Positions 16,049 through 17,861 of a stretch of 64,000 nucleotides of DNA are shown in pieces (the stretch's first letter is position 1; each line of letters starts with the position of its first letter). The translations under genes were made by a program, and so were the position numbers. Location: IMG/VR virus record IMGVR_UViG_3300005096_000137, positions 84,428-148,427 of that record; one strand, 5' to 3'. The notes under the pieces were generated by a model, which did not search any database, had not been told where the DNA came from, and saw nothing but the letters and a program-made list of their open reading frames with translations. This DNA is from a virus.

Positions 16049-16848
16049 GTTTGAATCGACGCGGCTTTCTTGGATTCCTTGGACTGGGTGCAGTTGCTGC
16101 TGGAGCAGCATCTATTCCAGCCAAAGCTTTGGCGGGCGCCAAGGACGTGCTCCCTGAGTCTTTATTGACAGAGGTCTCAACCCCTGAGGCTCTTGTGCCC
16201 CACCAAGGGGCTCACTTAGACCCCACCACGGATTACCCTCACATACTCCGCTTGGTCCATGGGAATAGCCATTGGGCACGCCGTGGGCAGGCTGAGGCTG
16301 GGGACTGGATTACCCATGCGTGGAGGTCCAAGCAGTGTGTCTCCCATGGTCGCCGTCTGAGGTGCATCGGGTTTCGACATTTGGGCGATGTCGCCTTCCA
16401 CTTCCACGAGCTGGAAGCAGGCACTGTGACAGACAAGTACACAGATCCGGATAGTCCAGAGTTCAAGGAGGTTGTCCAGAAGGCAGGCGAGTCCCGAGTC
16501 CCTTATGGTGTCAGTCATTATGCCTGGGGACCCCGCTATTCCATAACCCTTGTAGGTATTGGAGCTGTCGAATTCACGGGGTTGAACCGGAGCAACCGGG
16601 GGTTTATGCGGCAGGCGATGGGCAAGCGGACCTCTTGTGACGCATTCACACTGGTGTCCCAAAAGGTGGTTCACTCAACTGGCGGAACCTGGTTTAAGCC
16701 TACGATGGAATTCATTGATTCAAATGAGAGTAAGCTGTGGACACCCAGCTTAACTCAGCGAGTTGGAAAGAGTCAAATCTCCAAGTTCGCCAACATGTCC
16801 TCAACCCAGTTTGAATCAATGTATCGTGATGACAGGGATATGAGATGA
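16045..16848 (+). CDS. Tat-signal protein 4
   Basis: MSLNRRGFLGFLGLGAVAAGAASIPAKALA. Confidence 0.78.
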   Translation: MSLNRRGFLGFLGLGAVAAGAASIPAKALAGAKDVLPESLLTEVSTPEALVPHQGAHLDPTTDYPHILRLVHGNSHWARRGQAEAGDWITHAWRSKQCVSHGRRLRCIGFRHLGDVAFHFHELEAGTVTDKYTDPDSPEFKEVVQKAGESRVPYGVSHYAWGPRYSITLVGIGAVEFTGLNRSNRGFMRQAMGKRTSCDAFTLVSQKVVHSTGGTWFKPTMEFIDSNESKLWTPSLTQRVGKSQISKFANMSSTQFESMYRDDRDMR

Positions 16849-17861
16849 ACAACCGACGTGATTTCTTAAAGACATTGGGACTTGGAGCCGCTGGGGTTAC
16901 CCTGGTGGGTCGGCAGTTGTTGGTAGGGTCTCCTAAGGGTGTCCCCTCAGTCAAACTCCCACCAATTAGGGCTCTGGGGAGTGACTCACTTCCGGTTGAT
17001 CCCCCGAGGATTGAACTTCCACCAGTTGGAATGACCTACCCTACTCAGGATAACCTACTGCCCTCAATGTGGGCAGTCAGTGCTCAGAGACTCCTTGAAC
17101 AGAATCTGGTCATGGGTAATCTGGTTCACCGGGATTGTAGCGACGAGGTGTCACAGTTTGGGGACATAATCAATTTGAGAAGCCCTGGCTGCAATATCCC
17201 AATACCACTGGACCAGCTTTTCTCCACACACTTTGTCATCAGAGATGGGGATGCCTCCAAGTCCTTTCAAGAATTAAGGGAGCAATACCTCCGCCCGAGT
17301 ATCCAAAAGCTTGCTCGCCAGATTGACCAGGCACTCATTGGGCAAGCTGTCCACTACACGGATAATACCGTTGGGGGTCAGTACTCTCTCTATGGTGCTA
17401 ATGCAACCAACACCATCATTGATGCTCGCCGGAAACTAAACGATAATAGGGCACCCCTCTCTGACCGTAACCTGGTGTTGTCGACTGCCAGCTCGCAAGC
17501 CCTAAAGTGTTCAGAGATACTCCCGGTCATTCGGGATGGGGGTGGGTATCCGCCTCAAATCACTGCTCTCGAAGAAGCACGTCTGGGAAAGTACATTGGC
17601 TTCACCTGCTGGCATGTTCCTGATATGCCGTGGCATATCAACCTGGGTTTCCACCCTGACACAATGGCCCTGGTCACCCGACCATTACCTCTGGCCCTAC
17701 CTAGACTCCCCATCCGCTCAGGTATTGGTGTTCACAACAACCTTGCACTCCGGGTGTCAATGATGTATGACGTGCAGACGTCTGGGACACGGATAACCAC
17801 GGATGTGTTGGCGGGTATTGGTGTTCTTGACACTAACTTAGGCGTTATCATAGAAGGCTAG
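16845..17861 (+). CDS. Tat-signal protein 5: P22-coat (HK97-fold) capsid protein homolog
   Basis: MNNRRDFLKTLGLGAAG, then LEQNLVMGNLVHRD..FGDIINLR.P, YLRP..QKLARQID, DARRKLNDNRAP..R.LV, NLGFH...ALVTRPL, LRV...YD......DVL.G...LD. Confidence 0.75.
   Translation: MNNRRDFLKTLGLGAAGVTLVGRQLLVGSPKGVPSVKLPPIRALGSDSLPVDPPRIELPPVGMTYPTQDNLLPSMWAVSAQRLLEQNLVMGNLVHRDCSDEVSQFGDIINLRSPGCNIPIPLDQLFSTHFVIRDGDASKSFQELREQYLRPSIQKLARQIDQALIGQAVHYTDNTVGGQYSLYGANATNTIIDARRKLNDNRAPLSDRNLVLSTASSQALKCSEILPVIRDGGGYPPQITALEEARLGKYIGFTCWHVPDMPWHINLGFHPDTMALVTRPLPLALPRLPIRSGIGVHNNLALRVSMMYDVQTSGTRITTDVLAGIGVLDTNLGVIIEG

What the first reader, a model, noticed from the sequence alone, without database searches (positions are those of the whole stretch)
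16845..17861. Capsid protein homolog with a Tat signal, apparently lacking the E-loop and insertion domain
Seen: after about 65 aa of signal and linker, the protein follows the P22 gp5-family coat pattern (L..NLV..NLVHRD..GD.IN.R.P; LDQ; YL.P....LA.QID; L....AP...R.LV; NL.FH...ALVTRPL; LRV...YD; DVL.G). It sits far from any morphogenesis genes. From my recollection of the family, the stretch between RSPG and IPLDQ (E-loop) is very short. The long insertion domain normally found between GF....P and NL.FH seems absent (GFTCWHVPDMPWHINLGFH). Inference: this is a repurposed, possibly assembly-incompetent HK97-fold core small enough for Tat export, acting as a capsid mimic. Alternatively it forms a periplasmic encapsulin-like shell.
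Basis: partly seen in the sequence, partly recalled or inferred. Interest (0 to 1): 0.88.

Follow-up and report, generated by a model that had tools for sequence, protein, structure and literature searches.

The report
Export-tagged, trimmed capsid protein copy
A large uncultured phage, probably of Planctomycetes, carries an intact extra copy of its type of head-shell protein. The copy has lost its assembly loop and surface domain and gained a bacterial Tat export leader. It sits in a cassette with four export-tagged copies of a replication protein, a design I found in no paper searched, and its purpose is unknown.

Summary
Window 16845-17861 (+) encodes a 338-aa protein with three parts.
- A twin-arginine leader (N-R-R-D-F-L-K followed by an uncharged h-region).
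- A Pro-rich linker of about 40 aa.
- A P22-coat-family HK97 core (PF11651 41 bits; phrog_283 E 6e-26; model against the P22 procapsid coat Z 18.5).

Against the family profile it lacks about 19 N-arm residues, exactly 20 residues of the E-loop and the roughly 170-residue insertion domain. In a tree it nests, on a branch about five times the median length, inside insertion-domain-bearing capsid proteins of Planctomycetota phages and prophages. The trimming is therefore secondary.

It is the only capsid homolog in the 148-kb record, but the record is a fragment.
- The left end lies inside an ORF and the right end inside a tandem repeat.
- There is no terminase or portal.
- It begins just past where relatives carry terminase-portal-scaffold-capsid.

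The gene is translationally coupled to four Tat-tagged paralogs. These are diverged copies of a leaderless replication-module protein present elsewhere in the genome.

Best reading: an accessory, Tat-targeted envelope protein, not the virion shell. Export and function are untested.

This scan's earlier notes report Tat-tagged capsid copies in at least 76 other genomes. I found no published equivalent in four full-text searches.

The parts
16845..17861 (+). T8: Tat-leader-tagged, trimmed P22-coat-family (HK97-fold) protein, 338 aa plus stop
16845..16913 (+). Twin-arginine leader (aa 1-23): n-region M-N-N-R-R-D-F-L-K, Gly/Ala-rich h-region of 13 aa, then Arg. No clear AxA cleavage site.
16914..17039 (+). 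Pro-rich linker (aa 24-65), predicted disordered. It replaces about the first 19 positions of the family's N-arm.
   Evidence: pLDDT below 50; profile mapping
17040..17858 (+). HK97-fold core (aa 66-338): N-arm helix, E-loop stub, spine helix, P and A domains
17166..17207 (+). E-loop stub (aa 108-121, two 6-residue strands). The 20-residue deletion lies between aa 115 and 116 (nt 17189|17190).
17631..17636 (+). Junction where the insertion domain of about 170 residues is missing (between aa 263 and 264)
16045..16848 (+). T7: Tat-tagged paralog of the replication-module OB-fold-like protein. Its stop codon overlaps the T8 start (ATGA).
15218..16048 (+). T6: Tat-tagged paralog of the same family. 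Its stop overlaps the T7 start.
14614..15207 (+). T5: Tat-tagged paralog of the same family (shortest, 197 aa)
13700..14635 (+). T4: Tat-tagged paralog of the same family, with an A-N-A cleavage-type site
13644..13672 (+). Best sigma-70-like promoter match of the region (TTGACA-17-TACACT, 10 of 12), just upstream of T4. Consensus match only.
17869..18945 (+). N6/N4 DNA methyltransferase. It is the conserved right-hand neighbour of the Tat cassette in related contigs.

Best explanation
T8 is an accessory, neofunctionalised paralog of this phage lineage's major capsid protein. It is not the virion shell protein.

Shown:
- It is an intact HK97 core of the P22-coat family.
- After branching from insertion-domain-bearing capsid proteins of Planctomycetota phages, it lost the tip of the N-arm, 20 residues of the E-loop and the whole insertion domain.
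- It gained an N-terminal twin-arginine leader plus a Pro-rich linker.
- It is the last, translationally coupled gene of a five-gene cassette. The other four genes are Tat-tagged, diverged copies of a leaderless replication-module protein also present in the genome.

Inferred:
- The host Tat translocase exports the folded core across the cytoplasmic membrane.
- There it stays soluble or tethered by an uncleaved leader and linker, so it is kept out of the cytoplasm, where a trimmed coat protein could poison head assembly.
- Without the N-arm tip and E-loop it probably acts as a monomer or small oligomer, not as a shell.

Guess: it works in the cell envelope, for example in exclusion of related phages or in counter-defence. 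Nothing here tests this.
For: - Family and fold: PF11651 41.2 bits and phrog_283 E 5.6e-26; family HMM E 1e-77 in three blocks; model pTM 0.70 with core pLDDT above 90; Z 18.5 to P22 coat 8i1v_A; Foldseek top hits are capsid proteins and encapsulins.
- Still constrained: T8 keeps 58 of the 80 family columns that are at least 90% conserved and that it still has. The ORF is intact and overlaps the T7 stop by ATGA.
- Secondary trimming: T8 lies inside a 99* clade of 23 insertion-domain-bearing proteins. Its end branch is 1.42 against a median of 0.26.
- Relatives are true capsid genes: in L016 the order is TerL, portal, scaffold-like, then the 472-aa homolog, which matches phrog_283 end to end.
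- Leader: canonical RRxFLK, h-region and a basic residue after it.
- All eight distant homologs of T4-T7 with a complete N-terminus... correction: seven of the eight carry RRxF leaders, mostly followed by AxA-type sites; the eighth (P0020) starts inside the h-region.
- The same genome keeps a leaderless version of the T4-T7 passenger at genome 38015-38767 (hhalign 98.5%, E 2e-15). The leader therefore distinguishes the copies.
- TatC is present in 5 of 5 Planctomycetota genomes that carry prophage capsid genes of T8's clade.
- Not the virion capsid: the record also lacks TerL and portal, and it starts where relatives have just finished the head module.
Against: - No experiment or expression data.
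- T8's own leader scores just under Pfam's cut-off (21.8 against 22.7) and has no clear AxA site.
- The passengers (coat protein, replication-module OB-fold-like protein, perhaps a tail protein) have no known periplasmic role. This makes a non-export role of the leader conceivable.
- The phage encodes no TatA of its own.
- T8 has no ortholog anywhere searched, so conservation of this particular gene cannot be shown.
- The true capsid gene of this phage was not recovered, so 'second copy' is inferred from relatives and from the record's truncation.
Confidence: 0.6

Rival explanations
1. The twin-arginine-like leader is not used for export. It is a phage-specific address or handle. It could act as a membrane anchor on the cytoplasmic face, as a tag that brings copies of core proteins to some phage assembly or replication site, or as a tag that engages and jams the Tat translocon with self-assembling passengers.
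For: - The passengers are homologs of cytoplasmic proteins: coat protein and a replication-module protein next to ParB-like and primase genes.
- The Tat-tagged family sits in the DNA-metabolism region, between thymidylate synthase and a DNA methylase, in relatives too.
- T8 lacks an obvious signal-peptidase site.
Against: - The leaders match the Tat consensus in all three regions. Most family members have AxA-type sites after the h-region.
- Pro-rich linkers after the leader are typical of exported or tethered proteins.
- A related phage protein passes Pfam's TAT_signal cut-off (24.9 bits).
- No other described targeting system uses this motif, to my knowledge.
Confidence: 0.2
2. T8 forms a periplasmic encapsulin-like shell after export.
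For: - The fold is as close to encapsulins (Z about 17) as to small capsid proteins.
- An encapsulin of anammox Planctomycetes (Kuenenia cEnc) is reported with an N-terminal signal peptide (10.1101/085266).
Against: - The E-loop and the N-arm tip, which tie subunits and capsomers together in HK97-fold shells (established knowledge), are deleted.
- No recognisable cargo enzyme is adjacent. The neighbours are copies of a replication-module protein.
- The long branch suggests changed constraints.
Confidence: 0.04
3. T8 is this phage's real major capsid protein, and the N-terminal 65 residues act as a cleavable assembly (delta-like) domain.
For: It is the only PF11651, PF05065 or PF07068 match in a record that CheckV rates 100% complete.
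Against: - The record also lacks terminase and portal. Its left end cuts an ORF and its right end is a perfect 18-nt tandem repeat.
- The record begins with homologs of the genes that follow the capsid gene in relative L037.
- The E-loop is deleted.
- The gene lies in a cassette with seven other... correction: the genome has seven other genes bearing the same type of leader, four of them in this cassette.
- The leader is hydrophobic and Pro-rich, not a helical scaffold-like domain.
Confidence: 0.03
4. T8 is a decaying duplicate without function.
For: - Long terminal branch.
- No ortholog found.
- Truly degraded capsid remnants exist in Planctomycetota genomes (L121, L133).
Against: - A 338-codon open frame in a genome of about 50% G+C.
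- Two clean in-frame deletions at loop and domain boundaries.
- 58 of 80 conserved family positions kept and a confidently folded core.
- An acquired leader of the same type as its neighbours, and translational coupling.
Confidence: 0.05

Closest known systems
P22 gp5-type major capsid proteins (Pfam PF11651, phrog_283), in particular the roughly 470-aa capsid proteins of Planctomycetota phages and prophages (L016, L037, L097-L106)
   Same: Homologous sequence at 38-45% identity. Same HK97 fold: spine helix, P and A domains. Most family-invariant residues are kept.
   Different: T8 has a Tat-type leader and Pro-rich linker in place of the N-arm tip, an E-loop cut to a stub, and no insertion domain. 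It lies in an accessory cassette 80 kb from the tail genes, not between scaffold and head-tail genes.
Small capsid proteins of the same superfamily without an insertion domain
   Same: Similar size of the folded core (about 270-300 aa) and no insertion domain.
   Different: These keep a full-length E-loop and N-arm, have no leader, and are the head genes of their phages.
Encapsulin shell proteins, including the signal-peptide-bearing cEnc of Kuenenia stuttgartiensis (10.1101/085266)
   Same: An HK97 fold used outside a virion. cEnc shows that an HK97-fold protein with an export-type signal has been proposed in Planctomycetes.
   Different: Encapsulins keep the E-loop, form shells and sit next to cargo enzymes. 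T8 is phage-encoded, lacks the E-loop, and has copies of a replication protein as neighbours.
Bacterial Tat signal peptides (PF10518 / TIGR01409), including uncleaved Rieske-type signal anchors, and the Tat 'hitchhiker' co-export of partner proteins (Rodrigue et al. 1999, cited in PMC13673990)
   Same: RRxFLK motif, weakly hydrophobic Gly/Ala-rich h-region and a basic residue after it. The passenger is a protein expected to fold before export.
   Different: The known substrates I am aware of are mostly cofactor-containing redox enzymes and a few hydrolases. A virus capsid-protein passenger was not described in the 2026 review or in the papers searched.
Neofunctionalised capsid-protein paralogs such as T4 gp24 (vertex protein), from my own knowledge
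   Same: Duplication of the major capsid protein gene followed by divergence to a new role.
   Different: gp24 stays in the head module, remains a shell subunit and has no export signal.

Membership tests
P22-coat / HK97-fold major capsid protein (PF11651, phrog_283) | Sequence match above the family cut-off | tested here: met
   41.2 bits against 24; phrog_283 E 5.6e-26; family HMM E 1e-77
P22-coat / HK97-fold major capsid protein (PF11651, phrog_283) | HK97 fold (spine helix, P domain, A domain) | tested here: met
   Z 18.5, rmsd 3.2 A, 246 residues aligned to P22 coat 8i1v_A; Foldseek E 9e-11 to Che8
P22-coat / HK97-fold major capsid protein (PF11651, phrog_283) | Long E-loop hairpin that bridges neighbouring subunits | tested here: not met
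   20 occupied columns missing after residue 115; only a 6+6-residue hairpin in the model
P22-coat / HK97-fold major capsid protein (PF11651, phrog_283) | Complete N-arm | tested here: not met
   Profile positions 1-19 are unmatched and replaced by leader and linker
P22-coat / HK97-fold major capsid protein (PF11651, phrog_283) | Gene in the head module (terminase, portal, scaffold, capsid) | tested here: not met
   It lies between T7 and a DNA methylase in a nucleotide-metabolism region. Relatives have the canonical order.
P22-coat / HK97-fold major capsid protein (PF11651, phrog_283) | Forms the virion shell | not testable with these tools
   Needs virion proteomics or EM
Tat (twin-arginine) signal peptide | (S/T)-R-R-x-F-L-K motif close to the N-terminus | tested here: met
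   N-R-R-D-F-L-K at residues 3-9
Tat (twin-arginine) signal peptide | Uncharged, weakly hydrophobic h-region of 12-20 residues after the motif | tested here: met
   13 residues, mean hydropathy 1.76 over the best 12-aa window, then Arg
Tat (twin-arginine) signal peptide | Pfam PF10518 score at or above the gathering cut-off | tested here: not met
   21.8 bits against 22.7, a marginal miss. A related phage protein, L037:1309-2307, scores 24.9.
Tat (twin-arginine) signal peptide | AxA-type signal-peptidase site in the c-region | tested here: inconclusive
   None obvious in T8 (possibly V-G|R). Clear in T4 (A-N-A|E) and in most of P0015-P0023.
Tat (twin-arginine) signal peptide | Export depends on TatABC of the host | not testable with these tools
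   TatC is present in 5 of 5 Planctomycetota genomes of the candidate host clade. No TatA in the phage.
Encapsulin | HK97-fold shell protein with E-loop that self-assembles | tested here: not met
   Fold met (Z about 17) but the E-loop is deleted. Assembly itself was not tested.
Encapsulin | Adjacent cargo enzyme with a targeting peptide, in a cellular rather than phage context | tested here: not met
   The neighbours are Tat-tagged copies of a replication-module protein. The gene lies in a phage record.

The most novel reading that the evidence does not exclude
The eight Tat-tagged genes of this phage form one system. They comprise a trimmed coat protein, four copies of a replication-module OB-fold-like protein, a probable tail-protein copy and two passengers of unknown origin. 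In this reading, copies of the phage's most abundant, self-assembling or commonly sensed proteins are fitted with Tat leaders for one of two purposes.
(a) They bind host factors that recognise those proteins, such as immune sensors, and remove them from the cytoplasm by Tat 'hitchhiker' co-export or trap them at the membrane.
(b) They act in the enlarged planctomycetal periplasm as dominant-negative mimics that block entry of related phages.
Probability: 0.12. Interest if true: 0.95.

Novelty: categorically new. Interest (0 to 1): 0.78.

Why it matters
Capsid proteins of tailed phages are treated as cytoplasmic assembly parts. Here a phage keeps an intact, trimmed copy fitted with a canonical Tat leader, next to Tat-tagged copies of a replication protein whose leaderless original is in the same genome. 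This points to a deliberate re-addressing of core phage proteins to the cell envelope.

If export is real, it opens an unstudied layer of phage-host or phage-phage interaction. It also adds a new class of Tat substrates and gives a natural example of an HK97 core pared down to a form that probably does not assemble.

The scan's own earlier notes report the same design in many unrelated phages. If so, the question is general and testable with simple export assays.

Tried and rejected
- Looked for the phage's true capsid gene. PF11651, PF05065 and PF07068 on the whole record gave only T8.
- The 547-aa ORF after the ClpP-like protease (genome 29164-30807) is an ORFan with repeated coiled coils and a Cys-rich tail. 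It has no capsid signal by hhalign, PDB sequence search, the Atlas or homolog search.
- Tried to extend the record's left end. An exact-protein look-up and exact-DNA scans of viral and metagenome contigs found nothing.
There are therefore no expression or coverage data and no read-level check of the assembly.
- Complex prediction with three copies of residues 66-338 returned 'no answer' (score 0.00, controls not run). This is not evidence either way.
- Searched for T8-like Tat-capsid fusions in relatives. Five large related records each hold only the full-length gene. A region-restricted search on residues 1-135 found only T8 itself. L121 and L133 in Planctomycetaceae MAGs are frameshifted remnants, not Tat forms.
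- T4-T7 showed no similarity to any structural-module family of related phages (hhalign at most 1%) and no Pfam or PHROG hit. Their origin was found only through the profile search and the leaderless relatives.
- T1 against the scaffold-like family reached only 15% probability, and T2 against the capsid family 81% over only 39 columns. Neither is claimed.
- No TatA, gp32 or SSB Pfam match, and no PF23977 match, in the record.
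Full report
**What is there.** The window is bases 84428-148427 of a 148,427-bp IMG/VR virus record. Nearly all genes are on the + strand. Around the finding lie nucleotide-metabolism and DNA-modification genes: DNA ligase, PhoH, ribonucleotide reductase, MazG, thymidylate synthase, methylases and RNA ligase. The ORF at 16845-17861 encodes 338 aa.

**The leader.**
- It starts M-N-N-R-R-D-F-L-K, followed by 13 uncharged Gly/Ala-rich residues, an Arg, and about 40 Pro-rich residues.
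- Pfam's TAT_signal scores 21.8 bits (cut-off 22.7).

**The capsid part.**
- P22_CoatProtein scores 41.2 bits (cut-off 24), in two stretches that skip profile 207-349.
- PHROGs gives 'major head protein' phrog_283 at E 5.6e-26.

**The deletions are real and precise.**
- The nearest relatives are proteins of about 470 aa at 33-45% identity, with no leader.
- An HMM of 60 of them maps T8 68-115, 116-256 and 265-338 onto profile 20-67, 88-225 and 398-471.
- T8 therefore lacks about 19 N-terminal positions, exactly 20 E-loop positions and the roughly 170-residue insertion domain. This is confirmed on alignment A3.
- The AlphaFold model (pTM 0.70; core pLDDT above 90; residues 1-65 disordered) shows a 6+6-residue hairpin stub where relatives have about 34 residues.
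- The model aligns best to the P22 procapsid coat (8i1v_A, Z 18.5, rmsd 3.2 A, 246 residues). Next come HRP29, Douge, Che8 and encapsulins at Z about 17 (Foldseek).
- T8 keeps 58 of the 80 family columns that are at least 90% conserved and that it still has. Many of the 22 changes are conservative.

**The relatives are genuine capsid genes, and the host is probably a planctomycete.**
- In L016 the order is terminase large subunit (phrog_675), portal (phrog_145), a scaffold-like protein, then the 472-aa homolog. That homolog matches phrog_283 end to end.
- In bacterial genomes the closest copies lie on large contigs of Thermoguttaceae, Pirellulales, Aureliella and Planctomycetaceae.
- In a maximum-likelihood tree T8 sits inside a 99* (SH-aLRT) clade of 23 insertion-domain-bearing proteins from such phages and prophages. 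Its end branch is 1.42 against a median of 0.26.
- The insertion domain was therefore lost secondarily, and the copy evolved fast.
- Natural members of 292-308 aa without the insertion domain exist, but they keep the E-loop. The E-loop and N-arm loss is the unusual part, not the missing insertion domain.

**Is it the phage's only capsid gene?** It is the only one in the record, but the record is a fragment despite CheckV's '100%'.
- The first bases are inside an open frame.
- The last 83 bases are a perfect 18-nt tandem repeat that runs off the end.
- No terminase or portal homolog is present, apart from a 72-aa ORF similar to a short piece of the portal profile.
- The tail genes at genome 75-20218 are homologous to the genes that follow the capsid gene in the related phages.
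- In the 128-kb relative L037 the order is terminase, portal, scaffold-like, capsid, two small genes, then the homolog of this record's first gene.
- The head module is thus most likely in the missing part. I could not recover it.

**The cassette.**
- The four upstream ORFs (13700, 14614, 15218 and 16045) also begin with RRxFL leaders and are distant paralogs.
- The T6/T7 and T7/T8 junctions overlap by ATGA. The best promoter-like site of the region lies just before T4.
- An exhaustive profile search found eight more family members. Seven have twin-arginine leaders, mostly followed by AxA-type sites; the eighth, P0020, starts inside the h-region.
- In a 42.8-kb syntenic contig (L154) a single member sits between thymidylate synthase and the N6/N4 methylase, with no capsid-like gene. 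In L153 two different Tat-tagged genes are adjacent.
- The cassette is therefore a conserved, variable locus. Here it expanded to four paralogs and acquired T8.
- The T7 model (pLDDT 79) resembles phiC31 gp3 (Z 6.9, 142 residues aligned) and viral Atlas clusters carrying PF23977, DUF5895 or PF18897 (TM 0.54-0.66).
- The family is homologous (hhalign 98.5%, E 2e-15, 149 columns) to a leaderless protein of 245-250 aa found in related phages. In this genome that protein lies at 38015-38767, next to ParB-like and primase genes.
- T4-T7 are thus Tat-tagged copies of a replication-module protein, just as T8 is a Tat-tagged copy of the coat protein.
- Three more Tat-tagged genes lie at genome 67899, 69219 and 71872. 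The last shows weak similarity to the tail-module protein of genome 5136-6263 (E 1.5e-5 by hmmsearch; hhalign 69%).
- Eight of about 226 genes carry such leaders here, against 7 of 3418 ORFs in related loci.

**Interpretation.**
- Shown: an intact, constrained, trimmed HK97 core with a canonical Tat-type leader, in an accessory cassette of leader-tagged copies of core phage proteins.
- Inferred: Tat export of the folded core into the envelope. TatC is present in 5 of 5 genomes of the candidate host clade. The phage has no TatA.
- Loss of the N-arm tip and E-loop removes the elements that tie subunits and capsomers together in HK97-type shells (established knowledge). A shell is therefore unlikely. 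Export would also keep a potentially poisonous coat fragment away from head assembly.
- Function in the envelope is unknown. Exclusion of related phages and counter-defence, including Tat hitchhiker removal of host sensors, are guesses.
- Rivals are listed with odds in their own section.

**Comparison with what is known.**
- Four full-text searches and a 2026 Tat review gave no phage capsid-protein Tat substrate.
- The nearest precedent is the signal-peptide-bearing encapsulin cEnc of anammox Planctomycetes.
- This scan's earlier, mostly unchecked notes report Tat-tagged capsid, portal or tail copies in at least 76 other genomes. One later check kept the observation (85/100) but rated the export-decoy reading at 34/100.
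- I treat these notes as leads only. Taken at face value, they suggest that the design is general and that this case is a new, Planctomycetota-phage instance of it. It carries the most complete passenger, a whole trimmed core rather than a fragment.

Noticed in passing
window 63918-64000 and genome 1-74 (L004:1-74): The 148-kb record ends inside a perfect 18-nt tandem repeat and begins inside an open reading frame. It has no terminase or portal gene. It is therefore a fragment despite a CheckV estimate of 100%.
   Followed up: yes
genome 38015-38767 (L005:18015-18764), outside the window: Leaderless 250-aa protein next to ParB-like and primase genes. It is the canonical counterpart of the Tat-tagged T4-T7 family (hhalign 98.5%). 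Its fold resembles phiC31 gp3, DUF5895 and Pam3_Gp34.
   Followed up: yes
genome 67899-68690, 69219-69986 and 71872-72507 (L007:7899-12507), outside the window: Three more Tat-leader genes. The third is weakly similar to the tail-module protein of genome 5136-6263. The second has a 39-column match to the capsid family. The first may carry a lipobox-like L-A-V-C.
   Followed up: partly
genome 74201-74572, 74565-74891 and 75527-75844 (L007), outside the window: Three small ORFs (105-123 aa) match the middle of the scaffold-like protein family of related phages (E 2e-8 to 1e-3). They look like further mini-copies of a head-module protein, here without leaders.
   Followed up: no
genome 39539-39757 (L005), outside the window: A 72-aa ORF matches positions 332-374 of the portal profile of related phages (E 5e-6), although the record has no full portal gene.
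   Followed up: no
L037:1309-2310 and L016:1934-2965: Related phages carry a conserved protein of about 335-343 aa with a TAT_signal above Pfam's cut-off (24.9 bits), a few genes upstream of the terminase. No other family hit.
   Followed up: partly
window 17869-18945: The N6/N4 DNA methyltransferase has a C-terminal extension with two CxxCH motifs. These give weak multihaem-cytochrome hits. It is probably a zinc ribbon but is unusual.
   Followed up: no
genome 28577-30807 (L005:8577-10807), outside the window: A ClpP-family protease gene is followed by a 547-aa ORFan with two near-identical coiled-coil repeats and a very Cys-rich C-terminal third. No homolog turned up in 5.8 billion proteins.
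   Followed up: partly
window 7018-9687: The ribonucleotide reductase large subunit (889 aa) has an N-terminal or inserted segment with weak endonuclease and excisionase-like hits at residues 294-385. This may be an intein or homing-endonuclease insertion.
   Followed up: no
genome 12377-20218 (L004), outside the window: Five tandem paralogs of about 300 aa similar to tail fibres, followed by three tandem paralogs of about 365 aa (phrog_2448-like). All have homologs in the related Planctomycetota phages.
   Followed up: no
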